Shown piece by piece: positions 16,710 through 33,189 of a stretch of 64,000 nt of DNA. The notes beneath the pieces were generated by a model, which was given only the letters and a program-made list of their open reading frames with translations, was not told the DNA's origin and ran no database searches. Position 1 is the first letter of the stretch. Each line of letters opens with the position of its first letter. This stretch comes from Candidatus Omnitrophota bacterium (GTDB taxonomy: Bacteria; Ratteibacteria; UBA8468; B48-G9; JAFGKM01), in contig JAMWDI010000002.1 in NCBI GenBank assembly GCA_023819375.1, positions 181,896 to 245,895 on the forward strand, given 5' to 3'. A program made the translations under genes and the position numbers.

Positions 16710-16741
16710 CATTTCTAAACCTCCAATTTTAATATTTTTTA

Positions 16742-18508: not shown

Positions 18509-19755
18509 TTTGTTATCTCCTTTAATTTTTTTATAATTTCTTTTTCGTTAACCTCAATTTGATATCCATCTTTCATATTTTTCAAAATCATAATACCTTT
18601 TTCAATTTCATTATCACCCAAAATTAGACACCATTTTACACCTATTTTATTTGCTATTCTTAAATTATCACTTAAACTTCTTTCTTCATAATCAACTTCT
18701 ACCATTATTTTTTCTTTTATACATTCTTTCAAAATCTCTAAGCCTTTTAATTTTGCATTATTTCCAAGGAGAATAAAATAAACTGGTTTTTTTTCTTCTT
18801 TATCCTCTTTTTTAATGAATTGAACAATTCTATCAATACCTGCGGCAAACCCTACTGCAGGAATATCAGGACCTCCCATTTCCTCTACAAGATTATCATA
18901 TCTTCCACCTCCAGCAATAGCAATATCATCTTTTTCTGTAGATACTTCAAAAACTGTTCTGGTATAATAATCAAGCCCTCTTACAAGATTGGAGTTTATA
19001 CTAAAATTTATGTTAAATTTTAAAAGAAAATTAACAAAAGTATCAAAATGGTTTTTGCAATCATCGCATAAATAATTAAGAATAGATGGAACTTCTTTCA
19101 AATTTTCTTTACAGAAGGTATTTTTACAATCAAAAACTCTTAAAGGATTTTTTTCTATTCTAATTTTACAATCTTCACAAAATTTATCTATCTTTTCTTG
19201 CAAATTTTTTTTAATTTGTTCTACATATTTATTTTTACATATTCTGCAACCGAGAGAATTAACAATAAAGACAAAATTTTCTATACCAATTTTTTTCAAA
19301 GAAATATCAAGTATTTGAACAATTTCCCCATCAAAAAAAGGATGTTTACCACCAAATGTTTCAACTCCGAATTGATAAAACTGTCTATATCTCCCTTTTT
19401 GTGGTCTATCGTATCTAAACATTGGACCATAATAATAAAATCTTGCAATTTTTTTTGTAATATAAACTTTGTTTTCTATATAGGCTCTTACAACAGAAGC
19501 AGTTCCCTCCGGCCTTAAAGCAATTTCTCTACCTTTTTTGTCTTTAAATTCATACATTTCTTTCATAACTATATCACTGGTTGCTCCTATCCCTCTTACA
19601 AATAAATATTTATTTTCTAAAATTGGAGTTCTAATTTCTTTAAAACCAAATATTTCGCAAACTTCTATAAAAGCCTTTTCCACTCTTTGCCACAGTTCTA
19701 TTTCGTCTGGTAAAATATCTTTCATCCCTCTTAATTTTGTGAAATTACCATTCAT
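18502..19755 (-). CDS. hisS: Histidyl-tRNA synthetase (with a Cys-rich insertion)
   Basis: Start at the ATG at 19755 (MNGNFTKLRGMKD). Motifs 1-3 of class IIa HisRS, GGGRYD, and a C-terminal anticodon-binding domain. Confidence 0.9.
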   Translation of the reverse strand: MNGNFTKLRGMKDILPDEIELWQRVEKAFIEVCEIFGFKEIRTPILENKYLFVRGIGATSDIVMKEMYEFKDKKGREIALRPEGTASVVRAYIENKVYITKKIARFYYYGPMFRYDRPQKGRYRQFYQFGVETFGGKHPFFDGEIVQILDISLKKIGIENFVFIVNSLGCRICKNKYVEQIKKNLQEKIDKFCEDCKIRIEKNPLRVFDCKNTFCKENLKEVPSILNYLCDDCKNHFDTFVNFLLKFNINFSINSNLVRGLDYYTRTVFEVSTEKDDIAIAGGGRYDNLVEEMGGPDIPAVGFAAGIDRIVQFIKKEDKEEKKPVYFILLGNNAKLKGLEILKECIKEKIMVEVDYEERSLSDNLRIANKIGVKWCLILGDNEIEKGIMILKNMKDGYQIEVNEKEIIKKLKEITKC

Positions 19756-19802
19756 TTCAATTTTCCTTTTACAGATAATAAATTTACCATCAATTTTAAA
19801 AA

Positions 19803-19831
19803 TTGACAAAGTTTTTTTTTAGAAGTATAAT
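19803..19831 (+). promoter_or_regulatory. Sigma70-type promoter for rpsO-pnp, a perfect consensus
   Basis: TTGACA at 19803-19808, a 17-nt spacer, TATAAT at 19826-19831. It lies in the divergent hisS/rpsO intergenic region. Confidence 0.6.
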
Positions 19832-19859
19832 AATTAACCAAATTAAAAAGGAGAAAGAA

Positions 19860-20126
19860 ATGCTTGAAAGCGAAGTAAAAAAAGAAATAATAAATAAATT
19901 TAAAAGACACGAAAAAGACACAGGTTCTCCAGAAGTACAAATTGCTTTACTTACAAAAAGGATAGAAGCCTTGAATGAACATTTTAAAAAACATAGAAAA
20001 GATTTTAATTCAAGAAGAGGATTTTTAAAATTAATAGGAAGAAGAAGAAAATTATTAAGATATTTACAACAGACCGATCCAGAAAAATATATAAAGGTTA
20101 TAAGTGAATTAAATCTTAGAAAATGA
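19860..20126 (+). CDS. rpsO: 30S ribosomal protein S15
   Basis: Start at the ATG at 19860 with an AAGGAG RBS. Sequence [14 protein letters not shown]...LLRYL is classic S15. Confidence 0.9.
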
Positions 20127-22222
20127 AGCAAATTGTTATTCCTACCGGTAATAAAACAATTGAAATAGAAATAAATTCTGTTGCAAAACAAAGCAGTGGA
20201 TCAGCACTTGTTAAATGTGGTGAAACAATTGTTCTTGTTACTGCAGTTCAATCTGAAGAAGAAAAAGAAAATGTAGATTTTTTCCCTCTAATATGTGATT
20301 ATAGAGAACAAACCTCTGCTGCTGGAAAATTCCCTGGGGGTTTTTTTAAAAGAGAAGGAAAACCAAGTGAAAGAGAAGTAATTGTAAGTCGTTTAATAGA
20401 TAGATCAATAAGACCAGTTTTTCCATCAAATTTTCAAAAAGAAGTTCAGGTAATTTCATTTGTCCTCTCAGCAGATACAGAAAATGAACCAGATGTTCTT
20501 TCGGCAATTGGAGCTTCTGTTTCTCTACTTGTATCAAAAATACCCTTCTCTATTCCTGTTGGATGTGTCCGTGTAATTAAAAAAAATTCAGAATTCATTG
20601 TTAATCCTTCCATTTCTGATTTTGCAGAAAGTAATTTAAATCTTGTTATATCAGCAACTAAGGATGCAATATTAATGCTTGAAGGAATGGGAAATGAAAT
20701 TTCAGAGAAAGATTTTTTAAATGCAATTGAAATAGGATGGAATGAAATAAGAAAAATGATTGAAAGAATAGAAGATATTGTTAATCCAGATAAAGAAAAA
20801 TGTGAAATTGTTGCTAATGAAGAAATTTACAATCAAATTGTTGAATATTTAAAATTAAATCTTCAAAATGCCTATAATTATCCAGAAAAACAAAAAAGAA
20901 AAGAATTTTATAAACAGTTAAAAGATTCTTTTTTATCAAAATTTGAAGAAGAGGAAAAAAAGAAAGAAATTGAAAAAATTTATGATATTGTTTTTGAAAA
21001 AGAAATAAGAAATTTAATTTTAAATTCTCAAAAAAGACTTGATGGTAGAACTTTTAAGGAGATTAGACCTGTTGAATGTAAAATAGGCCTTTTACCAAGA
21101 ACACATGGTTCTGCATTATTTACAAGAGGACAAACCCAATGCCTTGCTTCTGTAACACTTGGAACAAGTATGGATCAACAAATAATTGACGGTCTTTATG
21201 AAGAGACAACCAAGAGATTTATGGTGCATTATAATTTCCCTCCTTTCTCTGTTGGAGAGGTTTCTCCTTTAAGAGCACCTACCAGAAGAGAGATAGGGCA
21301 TGGTTACCTTGCTGAAAGATCTCTTTTGCCATTAATTCCAGAAGAGAAAATTTTCCCATATACTATCAGAATAGTTGCTAACATACTTGAATCAAATGGC
21401 TCTTCTTCAATGGCTACTGTTTGTGCTGGAAGTTTATCTTTAATGGATGCAGGTGTTCCAATTTTAAAACATGTTGGCGGTGTATCTGTTGGTTTAATAA
21501 AAGAAGGAGAAAAATATGTTATCCTTACTGATATTGCAGGAGAAGAAGATCATTATGGAGATATGGATCTTAAAATTGCTGGAACAAAAGACGGAATTAC
21601 AGGATTTCAAATGGATGTTAAAATTACAGAAATTAATTTAGACATACTGGAAAAGGCTATTTTCCAATCAAAAGAAGCAAGAAGTGAAATTCTTGAAAAA
21701 ATGTATGGCACAATCTCTTCTCCAAAATCTAATTTATCTCCTTATGCTCCAAAATTCATTACAATAAAAATAAATCCAGAAAAAGTTGGTCTTGTAATTG
21801 GAACTGGTGGAAAGACAATTAAAAAAATTATTGAAGATACTGGTGTAAAAATAGACATACTTGAAGAAGGAGAAATAAGAATTTATTCTAATGATCTTGA
21901 AGCATGTAAAAAAGCAGCAAGTGAGATAAATAAAATAGCAGAAGAGCCAGAAATTGGTCAAATATATGAAGGGGTGGTAACAAAAATTTTCCCATTTGGT
22001 GCAGTTGTTAGATTTTTACCATCACAAGAAGGATTAATTCATATTTCTGAACTTGCACCCTATAGAGTAAAACGAGTTGAAGATATTGTCAAAATTGGTT
22101 CTCCTGTGAAAGTTAAAGTTATAGGTTTTGATGAACAGGGAAGAATTTTGTTAAGCAGAAAACAGGCATTAGAATTTGAAAAAGGAAACAATAAAAATGA
22201 ACAAACCAAAAAAGGCGGGTAA
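20123..22222 (+). CDS. pnp: Polynucleotide phosphorylase
   Basis: 699 aa: two RNase PH domains, KH and S1 ([18 protein letters not shown]). ATGA overlap with the rpsO stop. Confidence 0.95.
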
Positions 22223-23912
22223 AAACATTACTTCTCCAGTAAAAACACCTACAATAGGAGTATTCGCTCCATGCGATCCAAGGATTGATGAAATATCAAA
22301 GCAAAGAGTAAGGAATATAGTTGAAATGACTGCAAATTTATTAGCAGAAAGTATAAAACTTCCTGATGGTTCATATTGTAAGGTTGTCTTTAGCGATATT
22401 TTAATTGAAAGTGAAAAAGAGGCAGACATAGTTGCAAGACAGTTTGAAGATGAAAAAGTAAACATTTTAGTTGGTGTTCCAGATACTTGGGCGTTTCCTC
22501 AATTGACTTTAATTTCTTTTCTTAAACAATTTCCAGAAGATACTCCAATTAACCTAACTTGTGGAAACAGTGGGCCAAAACCCGGGGTTGTTTACACACA
22601 TGCATGTAGTGGTGCTATTTCTCAATATGGGAAACTAATCCATATAATAGTTGGCAATTGGCCTGATACAGGCTTAAATCCAGTTATGAGTGAAAATACT
22701 TTAAAACAATTAATAGATTGGTGTTATGCTGCCTTAACATATATTGGATTAAAAGGAAGAAGAGTTGTAATTTTTGGGCATGACTCAATGGGAATGGAAA
22801 CTGCTCTTGCCCATATCATTCCAACAAGAAAAATATTTGGTTTAGAAATTACAAGGTTGGATATGAAATTAGTTGCTGACATGTTAAACAAACAAGCATA
22901 CAGTAAAGATGAGTTAAAAGAATTGAGAAACTGGTTAGAAAAATATTCTGGTGGAATAGAATTAAGAAATGCAGATGATAGTAAAAGATTGGATCAATCA
23001 CTTGCTATGTATTTAATAGTAAGAGATATTATAAAAGAACTAAATGCTGTTGGTGGCGGTTTTATGAGTCAACTTGAATGGGGCTCTGATAAAAGAGGAA
23101 TACCACTACCTGTAGCAGATATAATGGAGTCCCTTTTTAATTCAAGTTTTGATCATAATGGAAAAAAGCCTCCTTTACCATTTGCCACTGAAGCAGATGT
23201 TCAGGGTCTCTTAACAATGTTATTTTTTACATACCTTTCAGGTGGAGCACCACCTTTATTTATGGATTTTAGAAAAGTATGGGAAGGTTGGGAAATCAAA
23301 GAACTGGCTCAGAAAATTGGAGTTAAAATTAATGAAGAGGAAATATGGGTCAAAAAAGGATTTGTTGATGGAACTAATTCTGGAAGTGCGTCATTTGATT
23401 GGGCTGGATATCCTGGTGAAGAACCGGAAAAAGTATTAAAAAGAATAAAATTCCCTCTTGCTGACGAATTTTATTTTCCAGGACTTGGTAATTCTGTTAA
23501 TTTTATTTCACCAGGAGGAATAAAAGGAATAGCAGGAAGGCTTGCCTATAGTTCATTAAACAACATATTTTCTCTTATTTGGGATGAAGCAGAAACAGTT
23601 GAACTACCTGAAAAACTTGCTGATGCTGTCTGTAGAATATCTACATACACCTGGCCACATACATTTGTTGTTCCAAAATATGCAACAATGGTAGAGTATA
23701 AACAATATGCCCCTGCAAATCATTTTCATATGATTTGGAATTTACCTGTTGCACGATTAGAATATTGGATGGATTTGGCAAATGTTTTATCTGTAAATAA
23801 CTGGAAAGAAAGGCCAAAATTTATAGAAGGAGTTGACAGACCTTTACCCTTACTCTACCTTATCAACGGTGGAGAAACAGAGACAAAACTCAAGATTGCT
23901 CAAAAATTTTAA
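22197..23912 (+). CDS. L-fucose isomerase-family protein
   Basis: Segments LFNSSFDHNGKKPPLPFATEADVQGLLTML and TYTWPHTFVVPK align with FucI blocks [22 protein letters not shown] and STWPTTWFAPR. The start is taken at the ATG at 22197, after a GGAAA RBS. Confidence 0.65.
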   Translation: MNKPKKAGKNITSPVKTPTIGVFAPCDPRIDEISKQRVRNIVEMTANLLAESIKLPDGSYCKVVFSDILIESEKEADIVARQFEDEKVNILVGVPDTWAFPQLTLISFLKQFPEDTPINLTCGNSGPKPGVVYTHACSGAISQYGKLIHIIVGNWPDTGLNPVMSENTLKQLIDWCYAALTYIGLKGRRVVIFGHDSMGMETALAHIIPTRKIFGLEITRLDMKLVADMLNKQAYSKDELKELRNWLEKYSGGIELRNADDSKRLDQSLAMYLIVRDIIKELNAVGGGFMSQLEWGSDKRGIPLPVADIMESLFNSSFDHNGKKPPLPFATEADVQGLLTMLFFTYLSGGAPPLFMDFRKVWEGWEIKELAQKIGVKINEEEIWVKKGFVDGTNSGSASFDWAGYPGEEPEKVLKRIKFPLADEFYFPGLGNSVNFISPGGIKGIAGRLAYSSLNNIFSLIWDEAETVELPEKLADAVCRISTYTWPHTFVVPKYATMVEYKQYAPANHFHMIWNLPVARLEYWMDLANVLSVNNWKERPKFIEGVDRPLPLLYLINGGETETKLKIAQKF

Positions 23913-23925
23913 CTTTTTACAAAAA

Positions 23926-23953
23926 TTGACATTAAAAATATTTTGCATATAAT
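23926..23953 (+). promoter_or_regulatory. Sigma70-type promoter upstream of tRNA-Glu
   Basis: TTGACA at 23926-23931, a 16-nt spacer, TATAAT at 23948-23953. The tRNA starts 22 nt downstream. Confidence 0.5.
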
Positions 23954-23975
23954 ATATTTATATGTTTTGGATTGT

Positions 23976-24048
23976 GCCCCCATCGACTAGCGGTCTAGGT
24001 CACCACTCTTTCAAGGTGGTAGCGCCGGTTCGAGTCCGGCTGGGGGCA
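23976..24048 (+). tRNA. tRNA-Glu (anticodon TTC)
   Basis: GCCCCCA/TGGGGGC acceptor stem, anticodon loop CTTTCAA, TTCGAGT T-loop. Followed by a TTTTTATT run. Confidence 0.85.
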
Positions 24049-24059
24049 TTTTTATTCAA

Positions 24060-24560
24060 ATGAAAAGAATAATAGCAGTTTGTGGTAGTAATGCAGGAGA
24101 TAAAAATTTATCAAAGGAAATTTTAAAAATTGCAGAAGAGGTTGGTAGATTAATTGCTGGAAAAGGCGGCATACTTCTCTGTGGAGGTCTGGGTGGTATA
24201 ATGGAAGCAGTAGCCAGAGGAGCAAAAGAAAAAGGTGGGATAACTGTTGGCATTCTTCCTTATGATAAATCAAAAGCAAATAGATACATTGATATACCTA
24301 TTGAAACAAACCTTGGATTTTATAGAAACTATATAATTGTTAATTCAGCAGATGTAATAATTGGAATATGTGGAAGATGGGGAACTTTAAATGAAATATC
24401 AATGGCTATGGCTCTTGGAAAACCAGTAATTTTAATATCTACATCAAAAGGGATATGTGAATTGTTAAGCAAAAAAGAAATTCTTGAATATTTTGAAGAA
24501 AAACCATACATAGTAGAAACACCAGAAGAAGCAGTTGAACTTGCTTTTAAAATAAAATGA
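24060..24560 (+). CDS. LOG/TIGR00725-family Rossmann-fold nucleotide-binding protein (SLOG-like)
   Basis: GGLGGIMEA and CGRWGTLNE correspond to the LOG-family GGxGxM and PGGxGTxxE motifs. The gene starts 11 nt after tRNA-Glu with no obvious SD. Its stop overlaps the next gene as ATGA. Confidence 0.7.
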   Translation: MKRIIAVCGSNAGDKNLSKEILKIAEEVGRLIAGKGGILLCGGLGGIMEAVARGAKEKGGITVGILPYDKSKANRYIDIPIETNLGFYRNYIIVNSADVIIGICGRWGTLNEISMAMALGKPVILISTSKGICELLSKKEILEYFEEKPYIVETPEEAVELAFKIK

Positions 24561-26080
24561 AAAGAGAAAAAAATATATATAAAGAAAAACAAGAAAAAAT
24601 TTTAACTAAAAAAAGTGGTTATGTTAAAGATTTTGGAACAGCACATTATATTTCAATAGAAAAACAAAGACGGGAATTTGGAATACATCTTACTTCAATA
24701 GACATTTTTAAAAAATTTATCCTACCAGAAATTAAAAATATTCTTTTTAAATATACTTGGGTTGATTTGTTTGCAGGGGAAGGAAACTTAATTTTACCAA
24801 TATTAGAAGAAATCCCAGAAAGAGAAAGAATAATTTTTTTTAAAGAACATATACTGCTTTTTGATATACAGAAAGAAATGGTTGATAAATGCATTAAAAA
24901 TGCTGGTAATTATGGAATTCCTTATGATATAGCAAAAACAAATATCCAGATAAGAGATACACTTGGAAACTATCCCAATTTAAAAAATCTAAAATATCCC
25001 CCTTACCATATAACAAATCCTCCATATCTTTATATAGGATATATTGTAAAAAACTCAGAAAGAAACTTAAAATATTTTTCTGGACATAATGAAGGATATC
25101 AAGATTTATATCAAATTGCTCTTATGAATGATTTAAGAAATAATCTTGAAAAAATGATTTATATAATTCCAACCAACTTTTTATTTGGATATTCAGTATC
25201 CAATAAAATTAGAAGAGATTTTTTACATTACTACAACATTAAAAAAGCAATCATTTTTGAAAGGAAAATATTTGAATTTACAGGAACCAATGTTTGCATA
25301 TGTTTTTTTGAGAGAAAAAAAGAGCCTTCACAAACTCCTATAATTTTTAAAGCATTGAAAATAAATGATAGAATTGTAGAAAAAGAATATAATTTATCCT
25401 TTAAAAATTTTTATAGAGCAGGTGGAGAATTTGACGAATTTATTAACGAATTTAGGCACCCCTCACCTTTAAAAATTAAATTTTATCTCACATTAGATGA
25501 AGTTAAAAAAAACAAAGGAGAAATAGAAGTTAAACTTTTGGATGTAAACAATTTTTCTAATGGTTATTTTAAATATAACACCTATTTTATTAATAAAAAA
25601 CTTTATAAAAAATTACAAAGTAATCCTTTATTTGTGAGAACTTTAGATACAGGAAGCTGGGAAGGAAGAGTTGGAATTTATAATGTAAAAGAAACATTTG
25701 GAGTTGATGGTATATTGGTAACAAAAGAAAAATATCGTACACATCCTATACAAATCTTTATAACTCCTGAACTTCCCAAAGAAGATTTAATTTTATTAAA
25801 AAATTATTTTAATTTAATGCTTGAATATTTTAGAGATATTACAGATAGCGAATTTTTGACTACTTTTAAATATTCTAATTCAAATTATATAAGAAAATAT
25901 TTAGGATTATCTCAAACGAAAAAATTGTTGGAAACTTTCCCAGTTCATCTGATGAAACCAAAAACAAAACACATATTAAAAATTTTAATTGAACAGAAAA
26001 ATATAGAAGGAATAAAAGAGATTTTGTCAAATTTAAATAAAAAAAACAAAGAGGAATTAACACTTTTTGACTATGAATAA
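24557..26080 (+). CDS. Gamma-class N6-adenine DNA methyltransferase-like protein (motif X-I-IV order, C-terminal target recognition domain)
   Basis: Motif I VDLFAGEGN, motif IV NPPY (YHITNPPYLY), and an upstream motif X-like GIHLTSIDIFKKFI. 507 aa with a long variable C-terminal half. Confidence 0.7.
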   Translation: MKREKNIYKEKQEKILTKKSGYVKDFGTAHYISIEKQRREFGIHLTSIDIFKKFILPEIKNILFKYTWVDLFAGEGNLILPILEEIPERERIIFFKEHILLFDIQKEMVDKCIKNAGNYGIPYDIAKTNIQIRDTLGNYPNLKNLKYPPYHITNPPYLYIGYIVKNSERNLKYFSGHNEGYQDLYQIALMNDLRNNLEKMIYIIPTNFLFGYSVSNKIRRDFLHYYNIKKAIIFERKIFEFTGTNVCICFFERKKEPSQTPIIFKALKINDRIVEKEYNLSFKNFYRAGGEFDEFINEFRHPSPLKIKFYLTLDEVKKNKGEIEVKLLDVNNFSNGYFKYNTYFINKKLYKKLQSNPLFVRTLDTGSWEGRVGIYNVKETFGVDGILVTKEKYRTHPIQIFITPELPKEDLILLKNYFNLMLEYFRDITDSEFLTTFKYSNSNYIRKYLGLSQTKKLLETFPVHLMKPKTKHILKILIEQKNIEGIKEILSNLNKKNKEELTLFDYE

Positions 26081-26870
26081 ATGGATTGAAAAAAGTATAA
26101 AATTAGCAAAAAGTGAAGGTTATTTGGATAAATTATTAGAAATATATCCACCTGAAGAAATTAAAAGAGGGAAAATTGTAGAAGATATATCTCCAAATCT
26201 TAAAACTTTTTTCCAAAATAAAGATTCTATTAATTTAATAAAAGAATTAGTTCATTTGAAAAAAGAGGGTTTTAAATTTCCAATTGAAAATCCATATATA
26301 AGTTTTTTATGCCATTATGAAGATGCAATTGATAAAAATCCTAAAACAATTGAAAAAATTTGTGAGAAGATTTTTGAAATGAACTATAATGAATTAAAAC
26401 AAAAATTAGAGTCGCCTAAAAAGGCAAGCAGAAGAATAGGTCCTATGTTTAAAGAATATCTTAAAAATAATTTTAAATTTGTAGATATTGAAGAATTTGA
26501 AAAATCCTATAATTTAGTTTTTCTAAAAGGTGGGGATAAATTTTTAAAAGAATATGCAAAAAATGTATTAAAATGTAAATTTAGTGAACCAAGTAAAGGT
26601 TTAGATTTTGTGGCAAAGATTAAAAATAGATATATAATAGGAACTGCTAAATTCATAACTGACTTTGGTGGCTCTCAAGATAATTCTTTTATGGAAGCAA
26701 TAAGGTTTGTTAAAGAAACAAAATGTCCAGAAAATGTAGTAAAAGTTGCAATTATTGATGGCGTGTATTTACGAAGTAAAATGTATGAACAACTTGAACT
26801 TGAAAATAACGAATTCTGTTTTAGTAGTTTATTATTGAATGAGTTTTTAATGAACTTTACAACATTATGA
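26073..26870 (+). CDS. Uncharacterised protein, candidate restriction endonuclease partner of the methyltransferase
   Basis: ATG at 26073 overlaps the MTase stop by 8 nt. 266 aa with no recognisable motifs beyond a possible D...(E/T)AK stretch (GLDFVAKIK...GTAKF). The call is inference from gene context. Confidence 0.4.
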   Translation: MNKWIEKSIKLAKSEGYLDKLLEIYPPEEIKRGKIVEDISPNLKTFFQNKDSINLIKELVHLKKEGFKFPIENPYISFLCHYEDAIDKNPKTIEKICEKIFEMNYNELKQKLESPKKASRRIGPMFKEYLKNNFKFVDIEEFEKSYNLVFLKGGDKFLKEYAKNVLKCKFSEPSKGLDFVAKIKNRYIIGTAKFITDFGGSQDNSFMEAIRFVKETKCPENVVKVAIIDGVYLRSKMYEQLELENNEFCFSSLLLNEFLMNFTTL

Positions 26871-27082
26871 ATTGAATAAAACCATTGGAAATTCTTAAAT
26901 TAATCACTCAATAATTGGCTCAAAAATCATTTTTATTTTTTCAAAAATCTCGTTATATTTTTTATTGTTGTTTTCTATCAAATCATCAAACCAGGATAAA
27001 ATAGTTGCAATACAGGACTGTTTAGAAAATTCCCGACCCTGTTCCATCTCCAAATGGCATATCAATCACCTTCCATTATTTT

Positions 27083-27307
27083 TCATTTTCCTGACTCAAG
27101 TTCTTTAATTCTTTTTTCTATTTCTTCAAGTCGTTTTCTTAAAAATTCTGCCTCTTTTTTCAAATATTCAATTTCTTCTTCTGGAGTAATTTCTAAAGGA
27201 GAATATCCACACCACCAACCAGGCCATGCACATCTTGGAAGTCCACCTCTTCCTATCCCAATGTAGGGATATGGAGGAGTAAAACCTTTAAATCCTCTTG
27301 ATCTCAT
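27083..27307 (-). CDS. DUF5320-family small protein (Gly/Pro-rich N-terminus plus coiled-coil C-terminus)
   Basis: Start at the ATG at 27307 with a GGAGGTG RBS. Its stop-start junction with padR is immediately adjacent. The N-terminus RSRGFKGFTPPYPYIGIGRGG and C-terminal heptad EEIEYLKKEAEFLRKRLEEIEKRIKEL fit DUF5320. Confidence 0.6.
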   Translation of the reverse strand: MRSRGFKGFTPPYPYIGIGRGGLPRCAWPGWWCGYSPLEITPEEEIEYLKKEAEFLRKRLEEIEKRIKELESGK

Positions 27308-27308
27308 A

Positions 27309-27689
27309 TTAATCACCTCCTTTCTTCTCCAAAATTTTTTCAATTTCTTCAATTATATTTTTAATAATCATAAAATCATTTTTTGCATGAATATACCAGT
27401 TTTCTAAATATTTTTTTCCATCTTCAGTAATCCTATAAACTCTTCTTGCTGGTCCTGAAGTTCCAATCTCCCAATTTGAAATTACTAAACCTTCAAGTTC
27501 AAGATTTCTTAAGTTTCTATAAACAATTGCAGGGTGTAAAAAAGATATATTTATTCCCAATTTTCCAATTTCTTCAATTAAAGAATATCCATAACTTTGT
27601 TTTTTAGACAAAATAATAAGAATTAAAACATCCAGTAAATTCCCTGAACCAAAAGTCAACCATTTCTTACATCTATGTCTCCACTTCAT
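27309..27689 (-). CDS. PadR-family transcriptional regulator
   Basis: Winged-helix PadR sequence LLDVLILIILSKKQSYGYSLIEEI...GLVISNWE...RRVYRITEDGKKYLENW. Confidence 0.8.
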   Translation of the reverse strand: MKWRHRCKKWLTFGSGNLLDVLILIILSKKQSYGYSLIEEIGKLGINISFLHPAIVYRNLRNLELEGLVISNWEIGTSGPARRVYRITEDGKKYLENWYIHAKNDFMIIKNIIEEIEKILEKKGGD

Positions 27690-27776
27690 TATTTTACACC
27701 TGTTTATATATATTTTACTTATTTATATACAAAATGTCAATAGATACAAATTATTAGAAAAATATAAAAATTTGAA

Positions 27777-28361
27777 TTACTTTTTAAACACTAAGAGAAA
27801 AAAATCTTCTTCATCAATTCCTTTTATATATCTAAAGCCAAATTTTTCTACAAAACACTTAAGTTTTTTAGTTGGAGGAATTATATCTTTGCTTACTTGA
27901 CATATTTTTTTGTGTAATTTATTAACAAATTTTCTTCCATGGGGATGTGAAATTACAAAAATTCCCTCTTTTTTCAATATTCTATATATTTCAAATAAGG
28001 CTTTTTCTTTATTTTCAAAATGTGGATAAGATGAATTTGCAATAATTCTATCAAAGAATTCATCTTCAAACTCTGTATTGTGAATATCCATAACAAATCC
28101 TTTTACATTTTTAGGAAAATTTTTCTCTCTGAACTTTTTCATCATTCCTTCAGAGTAGTCAATTCCATATATTTCAATATCTTTTTTTGTTTCAAGTAAA
28201 TATGGAATTAAAACTCCAGTTCCTGTTCCTACATCAAGTATTCTAAAACCATCTTCTATTTTGAGTTCTAAAACAATTTTTCTATACTTTTCAGAATTGA
28301 TTTTTTCGCTTTTATCCCACTTTTCAGCCATTTTATCAAAAAAAAGTCTTTTTTCATTCAT
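27777..28361 (-). CDS. Class I SAM-dependent methyltransferase
   Basis: SAM-binding motif ILDVGTGTGVL. 194 aa. Confidence 0.75.
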   Translation of the reverse strand: MNEKRLFFDKMAEKWDKSEKINSEKYRKIVLELKIEDGFRILDVGTGTGVLIPYLLETKKDIEIYGIDYSEGMMKKFREKNFPKNVKGFVMDIHNTEFEDEFFDRIIANSSYPHFENKEKALFEIYRILKKEGIFVISHPHGRKFVNKLHKKICQVSKDIIPPTKKLKCFVEKFGFRYIKGIDEEDFFLLVFKK

Positions 28362-29166
28362 TTCTAATTTTTCTTTTTGGAGAAAACAAAAAACATAAAC
28401 AGAATATAAAACTTGAAGTAATTACCATAGTTGCACTTGTTGGGGTATTAAATATTGTAGAGAAAATTAGTCCTGTGATTGTTGAAAGAATAGCAAATAA
28501 AACAGATAGAAAATACATTTTTTTTAAATTATAGGTTATCTGATATGAAGCAGATGCAGGATTGACTATTAAAGCATATAAAAGTAAACCACCAACTGTT
28601 TTTAAAATTCCACATATGGATAATCCAATTAAATAAAACAAAAGATAATAAAATATAGTTGAATGAATACCAAATGCTTTTGCTAACTCTTTGTTAAACA
28701 ATAGTGCCTTTATTTCTTTGAAAAATAAAATTGTTAAAATTGAAATTAAAAAAGTCAATATTAAGAGAAAATAAATATCTAAATTTTCCACTGTTAAAAT
28801 ACTTCCCCACATGTAATTTAAAGCCTGACTTTTACCTTCTGGAATTAAACCTAAAAATAAAAATGCTAATCCAAGAGTTAATGAAAACATTATGCCAGTT
28901 GAAGTTTCAGGATGTAATTGTGTTTTTTCTGAAAATGGTCCTAAAACTGAAGAAGTTATTAATGAAAAAAGGATAGAAAAAAAATGGGTTGATTTGTTTA
29001 TCAAAATGGCAAATAAGGCTCCAGCAAAAGAAGCATGGGATAATGCAACTCCTATAAATGAAATTCTCATAACTATTATCCAAACACCAATTATTCCACA
29101 AATAATTCCTGAAAGTAAACACGCAATAATTGCTTTTTGAAAAAAAGCATATTTAATTATTTCCAT
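28354..29166 (-). CDS. Metal (Zn/Mn) ABC transporter permease, ABC-3 family
   Basis: 270-aa polytopic membrane protein with ZnuB/MntB-like sequence. Overlaps the neighbouring ATPase gene. Confidence 0.8.
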   Translation of the reverse strand: MEIIKYAFFQKAIIACLLSGIICGIIGVWIIVMRISFIGVALSHASFAGALFAILINKSTHFFSILFSLITSSVLGPFSEKTQLHPETSTGIMFSLTLGLAFLFLGLIPEGKSQALNYMWGSILTVENLDIYFLLILTFLISILTILFFKEIKALLFNKELAKAFGIHSTIFYYLLFYLIGLSICGILKTVGGLLLYALIVNPASASYQITYNLKKMYFLSVLFAILSTITGLIFSTIFNTPTSATMVITSSFIFCLCFLFSPKRKIRNE

Positions 29167-29860
29167 TATTCTTCAATTTTTCTATTTTGTCATAAAAAAT
29201 AACATTACCATTTTCCATCCATATAATTTTATGACAAAGTTTTTCAAGAATGTAAAATTCATGAGAAACTATAAGAATTGTAATGTTTCTCTTTCTGTGA
29301 ATATCTTTAATTTTCTCTTTTAATTTTTCTGAACTTTTTTTATCAAGAAAAGTAAATGTCTCATCAAGTAATAAAATTTCTGGTTCTTTAATCAATGCAC
29401 TTGCTATTAAAACTTTTCTAATTTCTCCTCCTGATAAAAGTCCAAAAGGTTTCTTTAAAATTTCTTTTATTTCTAAAAAGTTAACAATCTCTTCATATTT
29501 TTCAAGATCTATTTTATTCATCCTTTTTAAAATACCCTTTTTTCCATATATTCCCATAAAAATTACATCCTCTGCCAAAAAGGGTAATTTTGGATCTAAT
29601 TCAATTATCTGAGGAACATATCCAATATTTCTTCTTAAAGTTGGGGCTGTAAAAGAATTTAAAGGAATATCATTAATAAAGACTGAACCTTTAATAATTC
29701 TTGCAAGCCCATTTATTCCACAAATAAAAGTTGTCTTGCCAGCACCATTTGGACCAAAAATGCCCACAATTTTTCCTTCTTCTATTGTAAGTGACAAATT
29801 TCTAATAATAGTTTGGTTAAGATAACCAATTGTTGCATTTATCAGTTTAATTTTTTCCAT
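29153..29860 (-). CDS. Metal ABC transporter ATP-binding protein
   Basis: Walker A GPNGAGKTT, signature LSGGE, Walker B LLLDE. Confidence 0.85.
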   Translation of the reverse strand: MEKIKLINATIGYLNQTIIRNLSLTIEEGKIVGIFGPNGAGKTTFICGINGLARIIKGSVFINDIPLNSFTAPTLRRNIGYVPQIIELDPKLPFLAEDVIFMGIYGKKGILKRMNKIDLEKYEEIVNFLEIKEILKKPFGLLSGGEIRKVLIASALIKEPEILLLDETFTFLDKKSSEKLKEKIKDIHRKRNITILIVSHEFYILEKLCHKIIWMENGNVIFYDKIEKLKNNGNN

Positions 29861-30681
29861 TTTTCAAGTGTATTTATAATAATTAAAAAATTTTTATAAA
29901 GAGTTTCTCTCATTGTTTCAGTATTCGGCAATGCGAGAGGGAAATTAGATATTACCACATGAGGAATTTTAAATTCATTTGTAAATATTTTCCCCGTATC
30001 TTTTCCTGACTGTAAATTATCAATCACTAAATCAATTCCTTCAATTTTAATTTTCCCAATCAATTCTTTTATTTTTAAAGGTGTAAGATCTTCTTTTCTT
30101 CCGTAAACATCAACTACTTCAAATCCAAAATGTTCAACAAGATCTTTTATATGGTTATTACATATCACCTTTTTCCCTTTTAATCTCTTAATCATTACCA
30201 TTTTTTTTATTTCATCATCAATCTTTTTTATCTGTTCTATCTTTTTTTCTAAATTTTTTAAAATAAATTCTCTATATTCTGGATAAATTTCAACCAACTT
30301 TCCACCAATCTTGTTATAAATTAAAATTTGATTTTCAGGAATAAGTGAATTTCCTTTTGTCTCAATCAGTATAATTTCAAATTTAGGATTTCTTATATTA
30401 TTTTTTATTTTTTCTAAATAAGGTTCAAAGCCATGAGCAAAAAGAAACCCATTTTTTTCAATTAATTTTAGATCATTTACTTTAATATCCACATGTCCAG
30501 GGCATATACCCGGAGGAACAATTGTTCTAACCTTTATCTTCCCTTCACTTATATCTTTTATAACTGAAGAAATAATAGAAGTTGTACAGACAACAGTATT
30601 AGTAAATCCTAAATTTGATAAAAAAACAAAAAATAAAAATTTTCTAAATTTTAATATGAAGTATCCCAATATTTCCTCCAA
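29842..30681 (-). CDS. Metal ABC transporter substrate-binding protein (ZnuA/TroA family)
   Basis: Signal peptide followed by [34 protein letters not shown], typical of the TroA-like fold. Start uncertain, since the track start overlaps the upstream gene by 31 nt. Confidence 0.7.
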
Positions 30682-31367
30682 TTTGGATATATTTCAGGAT
30701 TTGATGGTATTGGATTGCCGTTATCATCAATATCCTTTGTATTTGAATGATATTCTTCAGGTCTTTTCCATTCAACTCTTCCATCCCCAAAAAGTATATT
30801 ACTCCCACCAAAATGAACTCTACAAACAGCCCAATATGAGCCACTACCTCCTGATATCCATCCCGATGTAAAACTTGCAATAGGAGGGCCAGAAACACAT
30901 CCACCTTTACCATCTTTTATCCTTCCCCATTCAACAACAAGTATTTTCTCGCTTAAATTCCTTATTTGTCCTCCTTTTCTTCCAGCAAATCCGGGATAAA
31001 AATTACTATCTCTTGAAATATTACTTGGACAACCACAATTATAACCTTGACCATAATACCAATTTGAGTAAGAAATTGTTTTGCCATGCCTACTTGGACA
31101 ATATCCAATTTTATTTCTCATGCTTGGATTTACATAATAAAGCCATAAAATAGTCTTCCATTCTCTTTGAGGAGGATAGAAGTCATCATTATCATTTTTA
31201 TACATTTCAAAAGCAATTCCAAGTTGTCTTAAATTGTTTGCACATGAAATTTGTCTTGCTCTTTCTCTTGCCTTACCTAATGCAGGTAAAAGCAAACTTG
31301 CTAAAATTGAAATTATAGCAACTACCACAAGTAATTCAATCAGTGTGAAGCCAGTTTTTTTTGACAT
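30651..31367 (-). CDS. Prepilin-type N-terminal cleavage/methylation domain protein with DUF1559 (H-X9-DG) domain
   Basis: [30 protein letters not shown] is a type IV pilin/pseudopilin N-terminus. The body resembles DUF1559 proteins that are abundant in Planctomycetota, Verrucomicrobiota and Omnitrophota. Confidence 0.8.
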
Positions 31368-31492
31368 TTTAATCTCCTTTTTTTTAACTTTAGTGTTATT
31401 TTTTAAAAATTCGTGTTACTATTTTAAAACAAACCATTTTAATTGTCAAATTTGTAATTTTTAATATTGATAAAAGCAGTTATTTTTTAATG

Positions 31493-32102
31493 CTACTTTT
31501 GTTCAAATTTCTTTACTTGTGAAAACTTATCTATTAATCCATAAACACCTAAGGGCATTGGCATTGCAAGATATGTTTCTGTAGAAACAAAAATAACTGT
31601 GTTTTTTTCCTTCAAATGTCATTTCATAAAACATATTCATAGAGCAAAGTTGTAAAGCGACTGGATCTTCAGCATAGGTCTTTACTGCCTCCAACATTAA
31701 TTGGGCAGCCGCTTTTTCTGCTTCTGCTAATTCAACTCTTGCTTTTTTCCTTTTCTGCTACTTCTCTTGCAATTGCAATCTCAAGTTGTGAATCTACAAT
31801 AACTTCTCTAATTTCAACTGCAGTAACCTTAATTCCCCATTCATCTGTCATCCTATCAAGTGCCTGTTTTATTTCCTGAGCCAATCTTTCTCTTTCTCCT
31901 AAAAAAGTTGATCAAGTGTAAATTTGCCAATCATATCTCTTAGAATACTCTGAGCCCCAAGATGAGTTGCCATCTTATAATCCTGAACTTTCAGAACAGC
32001 AAGTGTAGGTTGTTGAACATAAAAATAAACGATAGCGTCAACAGTTGCAGGAACATTATCCTCTGAAATCTTTTCTTTCATTAATTTAAAATAAAAACAC
32101 AC
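31493..32102 (-). pseudogene. Decayed SPFH/band-7 (stomatin-like) gene: N-terminally truncated with at least three frameshifts
   Basis: Three minus-strand frames between them give KEKISEDNVPATVDAIVYFYVQQPTLAV...AQSILRDMIGKFTLDQLF, then ERERLAQEIKQALDRMTDEWGIKVTAVEIREVIVD, then QKRKKARVELAEAEKAAAQLMLEAV..., then NTVIFVSTETYLAMPMPLGVYGLIDKF. Frame changes fall at T6, A6 and A7 runs. Only 60 nt separate the fragment from the upstream gene, so about 100 N-terminal residues are absent. Confidence 0.6.
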
Positions 32103-32163
32103 CTTCGTATTAACATGTTTAATTTTACTTTTTTATTTTATTAAAGTTAATTTTTCCAATAGT

Positions 32164-33189
32164 TTAAAAATTTTTAAAAAGTAAAGACAAAAAATCAAAA
32201 TCATTAAATCTATTTTTTCTCTCAAATGTTAGATCTCCAAGTCGAACTATTACAAGTTTATAAGAAGGAACAATATATAATCTCTGCCCCCCTGCTCCAC
32301 AGGCAGCAATTAAATCTTTTGGGATAAAATCTGAATTTGTTATCTTATCCCATCCAATATCCTCTATAATTAAATTTGTAAAAATACTTGTATTTTTTTG
32401 ACTAATTTTGCCTATTAACCACCAGGTTAAACCATAAGCAGGAAAAACTTCACTCCCTTTAAAACATTCAGACAACAATTTGCTATCAACAATTTTTTTG
32501 CCATTTATAGTTCCACCAAGTTGTACAAACTCTCCAAATTTAGCCCAATCACGGCCAGTTATGCAAGCCCCTCCTGCTACTTGAGGATTACCATCTTTAA
32601 ATCTCATCTTATATTCAAGTTTAATACCTAATGGATCCAAAACTCTCTCCTTAAAGTAATCTTCAAATGTTTTATTTTTCAGTTTTAACTGCAAACAATA
32701 AGCAAAAATATTATGAGGTACACCACTATATTCAAATTTTTTCCCAGGGATTTCCTTTGCAGGTATAGACAAAAGGTCCTTCCATGTCAAATGATTAAAA
32801 TTTCTTATAATTCCTTCCGGCTTTAAACCACAGGTTAAATTCAAAAGATGTCTATAAGTAATTTGTGACTTTAAAGAATCTTTTTTCCATTTTTCTACTG
32901 TCTCGCAAACTTTATCGTCAAGATTAATTAAACCATCTTCAACAGCACAAATTGCAACAATTCCTACAAAACTTTTACTTCCACTTGCAAGGAATTGTAA
33001 TTTTTCTGGAAAACTATTTTTAGAATATTTTTCAAAAATAATATTTCCATCATACATTATAATCATACACTTTCCATTTTTATTTTTATGATAATCATAT
33101 GCTTTTTCTATCTTTTCTATTGAAAGTGGAATTTGACTAAAAACAATTTTGATAGAAACCAAAGGAACTACAAAAATTAATTTTTTCAT
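32164..33189 (-). CDS. Serine hydrolase of the beta-lactamase/esterase (PF00144-like) family, secreted
   Basis: Signal peptide and the SxxK active-site motif (ASGSKSF). 341 aa. Confidence 0.65.
   Translation of the reverse strand: MKKLIFVVPLVSIKIVFSQIPLSIEKIEKAYDYHKNKNGKCMIIMYDGNIIFEKYSKNSFPEKLQFLASGSKSFVGIVAICAVEDGLINLDDKVCETVEKWKKDSLKSQITYRHLLNLTCGLKPEGIIRNFNHLTWKDLLSIPAKEIPGKKFEYSGVPHNIFAYCLQLKLKNKTFEDYFKERVLDPLGIKLEYKMRFKDGNPQVAGGACITGRDWAKFGEFVQLGGTINGKKIVDSKLLSECFKGSEVFPAYGLTWWLIGKISQKNTSIFTNLIIEDIGWDKITNSDFIPKDLIAACGAGGQRLYIVPSYKLVIVRLGDLTFERKNRFNDFDFLSLLFKNF

What the first reader, a model, noticed from the sequence alone, without database searches (positions are those of the whole stretch)
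24049..26870. tRNA-Glu-adjacent, translationally coupled triad: LOG/SLOG-like Rossmann protein, gamma-class N6A methyltransferase, and an unknown 267-aa protein. Candidate novel LOG-associated R-M or defence module
The three ORFs overlap stop-to-start (ATGA at 24557; 8-nt ATGAATAA overlap at 26073) and so form a tight operon. The operon begins only 11 nt past the 3' end of tRNA-Glu, a classic island insertion point. The middle gene carries the DNA N6-adenine MTase motifs X, I (VDLFAGEGN) and IV (NPPY) in gamma order, plus a long variable TRD-like C-terminus. The downstream 267-aa protein has no recognisable family and sits where a cognate restriction endonuclease would be. The upstream gene has LOG-family motifs (GGxGxM and a variant PGGxGTxxE). 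LOG and SLOG domains are nucleotide or N-glycoside binding modules that serve as signal sensors in defence systems such as Thoeris ThsA, but they are not a known component of ordinary type II R-M systems. A LOG-like gene coupled to an MTase and a putative nuclease therefore suggests either a nucleotide-sensing regulatory layer on an R-M system or a base-modification/excision activity. Region 24-35 kb is otherwise accessory-looking.
Basis: partly seen in the sequence, partly recalled or inferred. Interest (0 to 1): 0.72.

Follow-up and report, generated by a model that had tools for sequence, protein, structure and literature searches.

The report
Ordinary restriction-modification cassette beside SLOG gene
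The "triad" is two unrelated things side by side: a conserved housekeeping-type SLOG (TIGR00725) gene that always follows tRNA-Glu in this lineage, and an ordinary two-gene Tsp45I-family type II restriction-modification cassette that recently replaced a neighbouring gene in this one strain, so there is no new LOG-linked defence system here.

Summary
The ORFs, overlaps, tRNA and MTase motifs are real.

- **REase:** the "unknown 267-aa protein" is a full-length Tsp45I-family type II restriction endonuclease (PF06300, E 7e-63). Its confident model looks most like BstEII and other PD-(D/E)XK REases.
- **MTase:** a gamma-class N6-adenine DNA MTase with its own TRD. Its fold resembles CamA, M.BseCI and M.TaqI.
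- **M-R linkage:** the M-then-R pair recurs as a two-gene cassette in dozens of unrelated genomic contexts and never with a SLOG gene (0 of 86 loci).
- **SLOG linkage:** none of 90 SLOG loci carries this MTase or REase, and SLOG's neighbours are miscellaneous housekeeping genes.
- **Sister-strain comparison:** contigs that are 99.8% identical carry tRNA-Glu, SLOG, then a minus-strand MBL-fold gene, then DUF5320 and PadR. In the window a 2.48-kb segment (24552-27034) replaces the MBL gene.
- **The overlap:** the left breakpoint lies inside the last two SLOG codons (AFK-IK* versus AFK-LP*). The insertion therefore created the ATGA "translational coupling".
- **The tRNA:** it is not the insertion point. 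The tRNA-Glu/SLOG adjacency is conserved in relatives that lack the R-M.

Verdict: a new, uncharacterised member of a known type II R-M family, next to a core gene. Low interest.

The parts
23926..23953 (+). Promoter-like site (TTGACA-16 nt-TATAAT, 12/12 match) upstream of tRNA-Glu. It is the only strong candidate promoter for tRNA-Glu/SLOG and, by read-through, for the inserted M-R genes. This is inferred, not shown.
   Evidence: The total number of promoter-like hits in the region is not above shuffles, so this is a lead only.
23975..24049 (+). tRNA-Glu (UUC). It belongs to the conserved core unit tRNA-Glu then SLOG and is not an island attachment site here.
   Evidence: The same tRNA directly precedes the SLOG orthologue in L001, L006, L007 and L008.
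24060..24560 (+). SLOG cluster-4 / TIGR00725 family protein (166 aa). It is a core gene of this lineage and not part of the R-M cassette. Its last two codons and its stop codon come from the inserted DNA.
   Evidence: PF18306 E 9e-43 and TIGR00725 above cut-off. Orthologues at 84-99% identity sit in R-M-less contexts. Closest solved relatives are 1rcu, 6y01 and 2iz5, the Moco carrier protein.
24552..27034 (.). Strain-specific 2483-bp segment holding M, R and a 164-bp non-coding tail. It replaces 897 bp of the sister strain that carry a minus-strand MBL-fold gene. The imported tract probably extends further right, to about 27390.
   Evidence: Window 16060-24551 equals L001 1-8492 at 99.8%, and 27035-32497 equals L001 9390-14838 at 98.8%. 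Junctions are shown. No MBL remnant survives. Differences cluster at 27035-27390. The right junction was assembled independently in L098.
24557..26080 (+). Gamma-class N6-adenine DNA methyltransferase with a built-in C-terminal target-recognition domain (507 aa). It is the modification half of the R-M pair.
26073..26870 (+). Tsp45I-family type II restriction endonuclease (265 aa from ATG 26073) with a PD-(D/E)XK fold. The candidate core is D155, D178 and T191-A192-K193.
26871..27034 (.). Non-coding tail of the inserted segment. It matches nothing in the sister strain or in other M-R loci.
27083..27689 (-). Right-flank core genes DUF5320 (27083-27352) and PadR (27309-27689). They are syntenic with the sister strain and with more distant relatives. 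Their first ~350 bp are more diverged (~93%) than the rest of the flank.

Best explanation
The region juxtaposes two independent units.

(1) A core unit. tRNA-Glu(UUC) is followed 10 nt later by a TIGR00725 / SLOG cluster-4 gene. This is a small stand-alone Rossmannoid ligand-binding or nucleotide-processing protein of unknown cellular role. It is conserved at this position in the Ratteibacteria/Omnitrophota-like lineage.

(2) A horizontally acquired two-gene type II restriction-modification cassette. It consists of a monomeric gamma-class N6-adenine DNA methyltransferase with its own TRD, followed by a Tsp45I-family PD-(D/E)XK endonuclease.

In this strain the cassette replaced an MBL-fold hydrolase gene that lies between SLOG and DUF5320/PadR in sister strains and in more distant relatives. 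The left breakpoint falls in the last two codons of SLOG, which produced the ATGA stop/start overlap by accident of insertion.

Inferred mechanism: the MTase methylates an adenine in a short palindromic site, probably of the GTSAC/GTNAC type, and the REase cleaves unmethylated copies of that site in incoming DNA. The M-before-R order and the 8-nt M/R overlap give coupled expression. Having no obvious promoter of its own, the cassette is probably transcribed by read-through from the tRNA-Glu/SLOG promoter. SLOG plays no part in restriction.
For: What is shown:
- Both proteins gave usable models (pLDDT 91.9 for the REase, 78.3 for the MTase). The REase model is closest to BstEII and other type II REases. 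The MTase model is closest to CamA, M.BseCI, MmeI and M.TaqI over 320-350 residues including the TRD, while RNA MTases match only the ~165-residue core.
- In sister strain L001, with L002-L005 from five SRA runs, both flanks are 99.8% and 98.8% identical and an MBL gene sits in place of M-R.
- The breakpoint lies inside the SLOG stop region, AFKIK* versus AFKLP*.
- The ancestral order SLOG, MBL, DUF5320, PadR is also present in relatives with 86% SLOG identity (L007-L010).
- tRNA-Glu/SLOG adjacency is conserved without any R-M.
- The M-R pair recurs in five unrelated contexts. It is also present in 23 of 23 metagenome loci whose REase is at least 48% identical and that have enough upstream sequence.
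- 29 of 73 REase clusters share an exact contig length with MTase hits.
- No SLOG gene occurs in 86 REase loci, and no MTase or REase occurs in 90 SLOG loci.
- No family recurs in more than 5 of ~70 SLOG neighbours, and no DNA MTase or REase family is among the 25 listed on either side.
- The M and R genes are 24% GC against 32% for SLOG and 28% for the window.
- The nearest REase relatives are only ~70% identical and come from WOR-3, Aenigmatarchaeota, Hydrogenedentes, Kryptonia and Thermoplasmata. This patchy, HGT-type distribution is also noted for PF06300 in PMC3424549.
- In L014 and L015 the cassette likewise abuts or overlaps unrelated host genes (RadC, rmlC), so tight abutment is a property of the cassette and not evidence of partnership.

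What is inferred: the recognition site, methylation and cleavage activity, and read-through transcription.
Against: - No biochemical or methylome data exist, so the activity and specificity of M and R are unproven.
- In this REase clade the canonical acidic residue of the (D/E)xK motif is Thr (G-T-A-K, where distant members have G-E-A-K). The catalytic acid must therefore lie elsewhere, or the enzyme could be impaired.
- GTSAC is depleted (6 observed against 18 expected, 0.3% of Markov-3 simulations reach this low). GTWAC is depleted too (36 against 66), and the R-M-less sister strain has the same sequence. The depletion therefore neither pins down the specificity nor reflects this acquisition.
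- The left junction is supported only by the window's own assembly.
- Because the three genes are now physically fused into one probable transcript, a newly arisen regulatory dependence cannot be formally excluded.
Confidence: 0.9

Rival explanations
1. One reading: SLOG, MTase and nuclease form one functional three-gene module. SLOG would add a nucleotide-sensing or base-modifying layer to an R-M or defence system.
For: The genes are co-oriented with stop/start overlaps and are probably co-transcribed. SLOG domains act as sensors in some defence systems (background in PMC6459960). There is a weak PADLOC hit of SLOG residues 13-69 to PsyrA (E 6e-5).
Against: - No co-occurrence in 90 SLOG loci or 86 REase loci.
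- Sister strains keep SLOG without M-R.
- The overlap is an insertion scar.
- SLOG is a 166-aa stand-alone protein with no effector domain, unlike ThsA-type proteins.
- SLOG's GC content (32%) is well above that of M and R (24%) and closer to the flanking core genes PNPase and FucI-like (31-34%).
- The M-R pair is complete and self-sufficient elsewhere.
Confidence: 0.03
2. The cassette is a decaying or partly inactive R-M: an active orphan-like MTase with a catalytically compromised REase, retained only for methylation or as an addiction remnant.
For: The ExK glutamate is replaced by Thr in the window protein. No activity data exist. GTSAC depletion is not specific.
Against: - The T-A-K variant is shared by the whole clade of at least 49% identical REases. 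These remain full-length, keep 25 invariant positions including D19, D155, D178, K193 and D229, and stay paired with the MTase.
- Both ORFs are intact, and the REase is 100% identical in an independent sample.
- Migration of acidic catalytic residues is well known in the PD-(D/E)XK superfamily (established knowledge; superfamily review PMC3424549).
Confidence: 0.07
3. The SLOG/MTase junction is a metagenome-assembly chimera, and the three genes are not contiguous in any real genome.
For: The left junction could not be found in any independent contig. Two sister-strain contigs (L003, L004) end ~100 nt after SLOG, as often happens at strain-variable points.
Against: - The right junction is reproduced at 100% identity in an independent assembly from another run (L098).
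- The window comes from a 348-kb contig.
- The junction gives clean, full-length ORFs on both sides.
- The divergence gradient on the right flank is what real homologous recombination would leave.
Confidence: 0.03

Closest known systems
Tsp45I type II restriction-modification system (Thermus sp. YS45, plasmid-borne; Wayne, Holden and Xu 1997, as cited in PMC3424549); Pfam PF06300
   Same: The REase matches the family profile end to end (E 7e-63). It has a PD-(D/E)XK fold and is paired with an N6-adenine MTase in a compact two-gene unit with a patchy, HGT-like distribution.
   Different: The recognition site (GTSAC in Tsp45I) is unverified. This clade has T in place of E in the ExK motif. The cassette is chromosomal and sits in a candidate-phylum MAG.
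BstEII restriction endonuclease (PDB 9ibq); recognises GGTNACC (own knowledge, REBASE/NEB)
Monomeric gamma-class N6-adenine DNA MTases with C-terminal TRD: CamA (7lni), M.BseCI (7qw5), M.TaqI (1aqi)
   Different: Only 11-17% identity and no HMM-level hit to any solved chain. CamA is an orphan MTase, whereas this one has a cognate REase.
TIGR00725 / SLOG cluster-4 proteins: T. maritima TM1055 (1rcu), cyanobacterial 6y01, Chlamydomonas Moco carrier protein (2iz5)
   Same: The first ORF passes the TIGR00725 and PF18306 cut-offs. It hits these chains at E 7e-25 to 3e-19 over nearly its full length.
   Different: The function of the bacterial and archaeal members is unknown, and Moco binding has not been shown for this clade. 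It has no link to the R-M cassette.
SLOG-domain defence proteins (e.g. Thoeris ThsA) and canonical LOG cytokinin phosphoribohydrolases
   Same: Same superfamily Rossmannoid fold and Gly-rich motifs.
   Different: There is no fused effector domain and no conserved defence neighbourhood. The protein scores below the cut-offs of the LOG models. The only PADLOC hit is weak and partial.

Membership tests
Tsp45I-family type II restriction endonuclease (PF06300) | Full-length match to the family profile above the curated threshold | tested here: met
   213 bits against a cut-off of 25; residues 4-262 on profile positions 1-258 of 260. PADLOC REase_II E 6e-50.
Tsp45I-family type II restriction endonuclease (PF06300) | PD-(D/E)XK nuclease fold | tested here: met
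Tsp45I-family type II restriction endonuclease (PF06300) | Complete catalytic D...(D/E)xK signature | tested here: inconclusive
   D178 and K193 are invariant, but position 191 is T in this clade (E in distant members). D155 and D229 are invariant candidates for a relocated acid.
Tsp45I-family type II restriction endonuclease (PF06300) | Site-specific cleavage (GTSAC for the prototype) | not testable with these tools
   Only indirect evidence: GTSAC 6 observed against 18 expected, but GTWAC is also depleted.
Type II R-M system (cognate M + R pair) | Conserved adjacency of MTase and REase across independent contexts | tested here: met
   All 6 loci L011-L016. 23 of 23 close metagenome loci with upstream room. 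Contig co-occurrence in 29 of 73 REase clusters.
Gamma-class N6-adenine DNA methyltransferase | Motif order X, I (FxGxG), IV (NPPY), then a C-terminal TRD | tested here: met
   Read directly from the sequence. The motifs are invariant in 29 homologues. PF02384 scores 45.4 bits against a cut-off of 20.4.
Gamma-class N6-adenine DNA methyltransferase | Two-domain fold of DNA (not RNA or protein) adenine MTases | tested here: met
Gamma-class N6-adenine DNA methyltransferase | m6A formation in a defined DNA site | not testable with these tools
   Needs a methylome or an in-vitro assay.
SLOG cluster-4 / TIGR00725 | Score above the curated cut-offs of PF18306 and TIGR00725 | tested here: met
   146 bits against 26.3, and 152.8 bits against 106.9.
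Canonical LOG (cytokinin riboside 5'-monophosphate phosphoribohydrolase; TIGR00730, PF03641) | Score above the curated cut-offs; PGGxGTxxE motif | tested here: not met
   TIGR00730 55.6 against 96.35. NF058542 40.7 against 300. PF03641 19.8 against 27. The motif is GRWGTLNE rather than PGGxGTxxE.
SLOG-based defence system (Thoeris ThsA-like or other SLOG conflict systems) | SLOG fused to or conserved next to an effector or signal-generating gene | tested here: not met
   It is a 166-aa single-domain protein. No family recurs in more than 5 of ~70 flanking genes, and no defence, MTase or REase family is among the 25 listed per side. None of 90 SLOG loci has M or R. The PADLOC hit is weak and partial only.
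tRNA-targeted genomic island | Insertion boundary at the tRNA 3' end, an integrase, and a direct repeat of the tRNA end | tested here: not met
   The boundary is at 24551/24552, 500 bp downstream of the tRNA. tRNA-Glu/SLOG is conserved without an island. There are no flanking repeats and no integrase among the neighbours.

The most novel reading that the evidence does not exclude
The most novel reading still open is about the cassette and not about LOG. This Tsp45I-family M-R pair may be a promoterless, mobility-gene-free cassette. It would spread by inserting precisely at the 3' ends of, or inside, host transcription units. Examples here are the SLOG stop codon (this window), the RadC stop codon in L014, and a position between rmlC and rmlA in L015. 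The cassette would then live off host read-through transcription, in this strain from a consensus tRNA promoter. Once at a locus it would move between strains by homologous recombination of the flanks, which fits the divergence gradient at 27035-27390. A still less likely variant is that fusion to the tRNA-Glu/SLOG transcript has created a new regulatory dependence of restriction on SLOG or on tRNA-Glu expression.
Probability: 0.15. Interest if true: 0.35.

Novelty: new member of a known kind. Interest (0 to 1): 0.1.

Why it matters
It matters little as biology. The window holds an uncharacterised orthologue of a known type II R-M family in a candidate-phylum (Ratteibacteria/Omnitrophota-like) MAG, next to a conserved gene of unknown function.

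Its value is mainly cautionary. Stop/start overlaps and proximity to a tRNA looked like evidence for a tight, novel three-gene defence operon. A single empty-site comparison with a sister strain showed that the overlap is an insertion scar.

It also gives a clean natural example of R-M gain by gene replacement within a population, since both alleles occur in the same SRA series. The cassette's mode of spread and its specificity could be followed up cheaply if anyone cares about GTNAC-type enzymes from uncultivated thermophile-like lineages.

Tried and rejected
- Exact-sequence look-ups of the window's SLOG and MTase proteins found nothing on record, probably because of start-codon or terminal differences. 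Only the REase (P0121) was found.
- An exact 47-nt search for the left junction in JGI metagenomes found nothing, so that junction has no independent support.
- Sequence and profile searches of the REase and MTase against PDB chains gave nothing useful. Fold comparison was needed instead.
It was redone with alignment A6.
- The paper defining SLOG families (Burroughs et al. 2015) is not held. 'TIGR00725' occurs in no held paper, and an 'SLOG'/'LDcluster4' word search returned mostly noise. Background on SLOG therefore rests on PMC6459960 and on Pfam and NCBIfam names.
- No BstEII structure paper was found.
- Flanking direct or inverted repeats that would indicate transposition or site-specific integration: none convincing.
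- Promoter and terminator scans: counts are not above shuffles. The only 'terminator' between tRNA and SLOG is the tRNA's own T-arm/acceptor stem.
- GTSAC avoidance as a read-out of specificity was rejected as decisive. GTWAC is equally depleted and the R-M-less sister strain shares the sequence.
- A type I or type IIG assignment of the MTase (suggested by weak PADLOC hits and by source names such as 'type I ... methylase subunit') was rejected. There is no HsdS or HsdR and no fused nuclease. The MTase has its own TRD and a constant Tsp45I-type partner.
- A search of plasmids found only distant (29-31%) REase relatives. One, on a Campylobacter conjugative plasmid, is annotated as a type II REase next to a DNA MTase in R-then-M order.
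Full report
**1. Observation.**

- ARAGORN finds tRNA-Glu(UUC) at 23975-24049.
- Three co-oriented ORFs follow: 24060-24560 (166 aa), 24557-26080 (507 aa) and 26067/26073-26870 (267 or 265 aa).
- The ATGA overlap at 24557 and the ATGAATAA overlap at 26073-26080 can be read directly.
- The MTase motifs are present in the order X, I, IV. They are G42/T46-S47/I50-F51, then D70-L-F-x-G-E-G-N77, then N154-P-P-Y157. All are invariant in 29 homologues.

Two points of the description are wrong.
- The third protein is not an orphan. It matches Pfam PF06300, 'Tsp45I type II restriction enzyme', end to end (E 7e-63, 213 bits against a cut-off of 25) and PADLOC REase_II (E 6e-50).
- Its start is almost certainly the ATG at 26073. 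The identical database protein P0121 and all homologues begin MNKW....

The first ORF belongs to the SLOG superfamily. It passes PF18306 (SLOG cluster 4) and TIGR00725 but falls below the cut-offs of the canonical LOG models.

**2. What the R-M genes are.**

*REase.*
- A 41-sequence alignment gave an AlphaFold model with mean pLDDT 91.9.
- This agrees with the published assignment of the Tsp45I family to that superfamily (PMC3424549).
- Invariant residues include D155, D178 and K193. The expected acidic residue two positions before K193 is Thr throughout this clade and Glu in distant members. The exact catalytic constellation is therefore unresolved.

*MTase.*
- It passes PF02384.
- RNA MTases align only over the ~165-residue Rossmann core, with Z no higher than 13.6.
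- It is therefore a monomeric gamma-class N6-adenine DNA MTase.

**3. Is the SLOG gene linked to the R-M pair? No, by three independent tests.**

*(a) Empty-site comparison.*
- The SLOG protein's closest relative (P0001, 99%) lies on contigs from five SRA runs.
- Window 16060-24551 aligns to L001 1-8492 at 99.8%, and window 27035-32497 aligns to L001 9390-14838 at 98.8%.
- In between, the window has 2483 bp (M, R and a 164-bp tail). L001 has 897 bp carrying a minus-strand MBL-fold (Lactamase_B) gene.
- All five sister contigs carry the identical MBL-side sequence, and no MBL remnant is left in the window.
- The left breakpoint is inside the last two SLOG codons...GCT TTT AAA | ATA AAA TGA (AFK-IK*) in the window against ...AAA | TTG CCT TAA (AFK-LP*) in L001. 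The ATGA overlap therefore arrived with the inserted DNA.
- More distant relatives (SLOG 86% identical, L007-L010) also have SLOG, then MBL, DUF5320 and PadR on the opposite strand. That order is ancestral.
- tRNA-Glu directly precedes SLOG in L001, L006, L007 and L008 even where the upstream genes differ. The tRNA is part of a conserved core unit and is not an island attachment site.

*(b) From the SLOG side.*
- tblastn finds no relative of the MTase or REase in 90 SLOG loci: 10 from look-ups and 80 from a scan of GTDB species genomes covering many bacterial and archaeal phyla.
- A Pfam census covered the genes immediately downstream (68) and upstream (71) of SLOG. No family occurs in more than 5 loci.
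- The families listed are Peptidase_M23, acylphosphatase, GGDEF, enolase, topoisomerase, RLI/ribosome-biogenesis proteins and the like. None of the 25 families listed on either side is a DNA MTase or a REase.

*(c) From the R-M side.*
- In five different contexts a ~500-aa N6_Mtase precedes the REase homologue on the same strand. The contexts are PGA_cap/peptidase; GidA with a ParE/Phd pair; RadC; inside an rml operon; and a short contig.
- MTase identity tracks REase identity (78% with 70%; 67% with 49%).
- In 80 further metagenome loci there is no SLOG hit. All 23 loci with a REase at least 48% identical and at least 1.6 kb of upstream sequence have the MTase directly upstream, with a gap of 3-120 nt in 22 of them and 385 nt in one.
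- 29 of 73 REase clusters share an exact contig length with one of the 120 listed MTase hits.
- The cassette DNA aligns to L011-L014 at 78% only across the two coding regions.
- In L014 the MTase start overlaps the RadC stop. In L015 the cassette sits between rmlC and rmlA with a 2-nt gap and a 4-nt overlap. Tight abutment to unrelated host genes is therefore typical of this cassette.

**4. Supporting features.**
- M and R are 24% GC, against 32% for SLOG and 28% for the window.
- The nearest REase relatives are ~70% identical and come from unrelated phyla, including archaea.
- The identical REase and the right junction occur on an independently assembled contig from SRR21619497, which equals window 25724-27067 at 100%. 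That run belongs to the same series that yielded MBL-allele contigs, so both alleles coexist in the sampled populations.
- Differences from the sister strain on the right flank cluster at 27035-27390: 26 differing alignment columns, 8 of them gap columns (7 from a single 7-nt indel), about 93% identity. The next 1.7 kb has almost none. The left flank is uniformly 99.8% identical up to the breakpoint.
- This pattern suggests that the cassette entered by recombination with a diverged relative that already carried it next to DUF5320. This is an inference.
- No flanking repeats or integrase were found.

**5. Mechanism (inferred).**
- The MTase N6-methylates adenine in a short palindrome.
- The REase, probably a homodimer like other type IIP PD-(D/E)XK enzymes, cleaves unmodified sites.
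- The M-before-R order and the 8-nt overlap couple their expression.
- No convincing promoter lies between SLOG and M. A perfect TTGACA-16-TATAAT lies at 23926-23953 upstream of the tRNA. Read-through transcription from the tRNA-Glu/SLOG unit is therefore plausible but untested.
- Specificity is unknown. The family prototype cuts GTSAC and the best structural match, BstEII, cuts GGTNACC (own knowledge).
- GTSAC is depleted in the window. There are 6 sites against 18 expected from a Markov-3 model and 47 from base composition, and 0.3% of simulations reach this low.
- GTWAC is depleted too (36 against 66), and the R-M-less sister strain shares the sequence. This is not diagnostic.

**6. The SLOG gene itself.**
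- It is a 166-aa stand-alone TIGR00725 protein. Invariant motifs are CGGxxGxM and GRWGTxxE.
- It is closest to T. maritima TM1055 (1rcu), 6y01 and the Chlamydomonas Moco carrier protein (2iz5).
- The family is widespread in archaea and in anaerobic or thermophilic bacteria, with no conserved neighbourhood.
- Its role remains unknown. It is probably a small-molecule or nucleotide binding or processing protein. Nothing ties it to defence here.

**7. Comparison with known systems, and novelty.**
- The M-R pair meets every testable criterion for a Tsp45I-family type II R-M system. The exceptions are the canonical ExK glutamate (inconclusive) and biochemical activity (not testable here).
- It is a new, uncharacterised member of a known kind.
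- The only mildly novel residue is the cassette's habit of inserting at or inside host transcription units without mobility genes. That phenomenon is already described in general terms for R-M systems (own knowledge of the mobile R-M literature; not checked here).

**8. Verdict.**
- Observation: partly confirmed.
- Interpretation: partly supported. The R-M call is right and the LOG linkage is not.
- Interest: 0.1.

Noticed in passing
L001 8558-9307 (-); L007-L010 8506-9219 (-); absent from the window (replaced by 24552-27034): An MBL-fold hydrolase gene (Lactamase_B, HxHxDH motif, weak similarity to the anti-Pycsar Apyc1 family) lies convergent to the SLOG gene. It is conserved in the sister strain and in relatives with 86% SLOG identity. 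This SLOG/MBL pairing, not SLOG/MTase, is the locally conserved neighbourhood, and it was destroyed in the window's strain.
   Followed up: partly
window 23926-24060; L001, L006, L007, L008 around 7912-8001: tRNA-Glu(UUC) and the TIGR00725 gene stay adjacent (10-16 nt apart) across relatives whose upstream genes differ (fucose-isomerase-like versus QueG or glutamate dehydrogenase). A perfect sigma-70 consensus promoter lies upstream of the tRNA. A protein gene apparently co-transcribed with a tRNA is unusual and unexplained.
   Followed up: partly
window 27035-27390 versus L001 9390-9740: The first ~350 bp right of the insertion (the small ORF start and the DUF5320 gene) are ~93% identical to the sister strain, including a 7-nt indel. 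The next 1.7 kb is ~100% identical. This looks like the edge of a recombination tract imported together with the R-M cassette.
   Followed up: partly
L015 768-3081 (GCA_028697565.1, Ca. Ratteibacteria); L014 4468: The same M-R cassette sits inside an rml (dTDP-rhamnose) operon between rmlC-like and rmlA-like genes, with a 2-nt gap and a 4-nt overlap. In L014 its ATG overlaps the stop codon of a RadC gene. This hints at promoterless insertion into host transcription units.
   Followed up: partly
L007/L008 9927-16128: In relatives, a type I R-M (HsdR, HsdS) with YgjP-like, HEPN_Cthe2314 and NYN genes lies just beyond the PadR gene. This neighbourhood is therefore a recurrent landing place for defence genes in the lineage.
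   Followed up: no
window 26073-26870, residues 190-193 (G-T-A-K): The whole clade of REases at least 49% identical has Thr where the PD-(D/E)XK motif normally has Glu. More distant family members have G-E-A-K. D155 and D229 are invariant and may supply the missing acid.
   Followed up: partly
L131-L139, L146, L156: Some loci combine a REase only 40-44% identical to the window's with an MTase 75-80% identical. In this family the REase evolves, or is exchanged, much faster than its MTase.
   Followed up: no
whole window (64 kb): GTNAC words are depleted 2-3 fold against a 3rd-order Markov expectation (GTSAC 6 against 18; GTWAC 36 against 66). One of the six GTSAC sites lies inside tRNA-Glu (23999). 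The most avoided 5-mers overall are CAAAG/CTTTG, CAAGG/CCTTG and GAATC/GATTC.
   Followed up: partly
window 26904-27065 (-): A 53-aa ORF spans the right junction and was also called in L098. It starts in sequence shared with the sister strain and continues into the inserted tail. In another frame a short peptide starting MPFGDGTG (a DUF5320-like N-terminus) is truncated differently in the two alleles. Both are probably non-functional by-products of the junction.
   Followed up: no
L097 4001-5913 (Campylobacter armoricus plasmid pCA639-2): A distant (31%) Tsp45I-family REase on a conjugative plasmid is followed, not preceded, by a different 'site-specific DNA-methyltransferase'. Gene order and MTase partner therefore vary across the wider family.
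   Followed up: no
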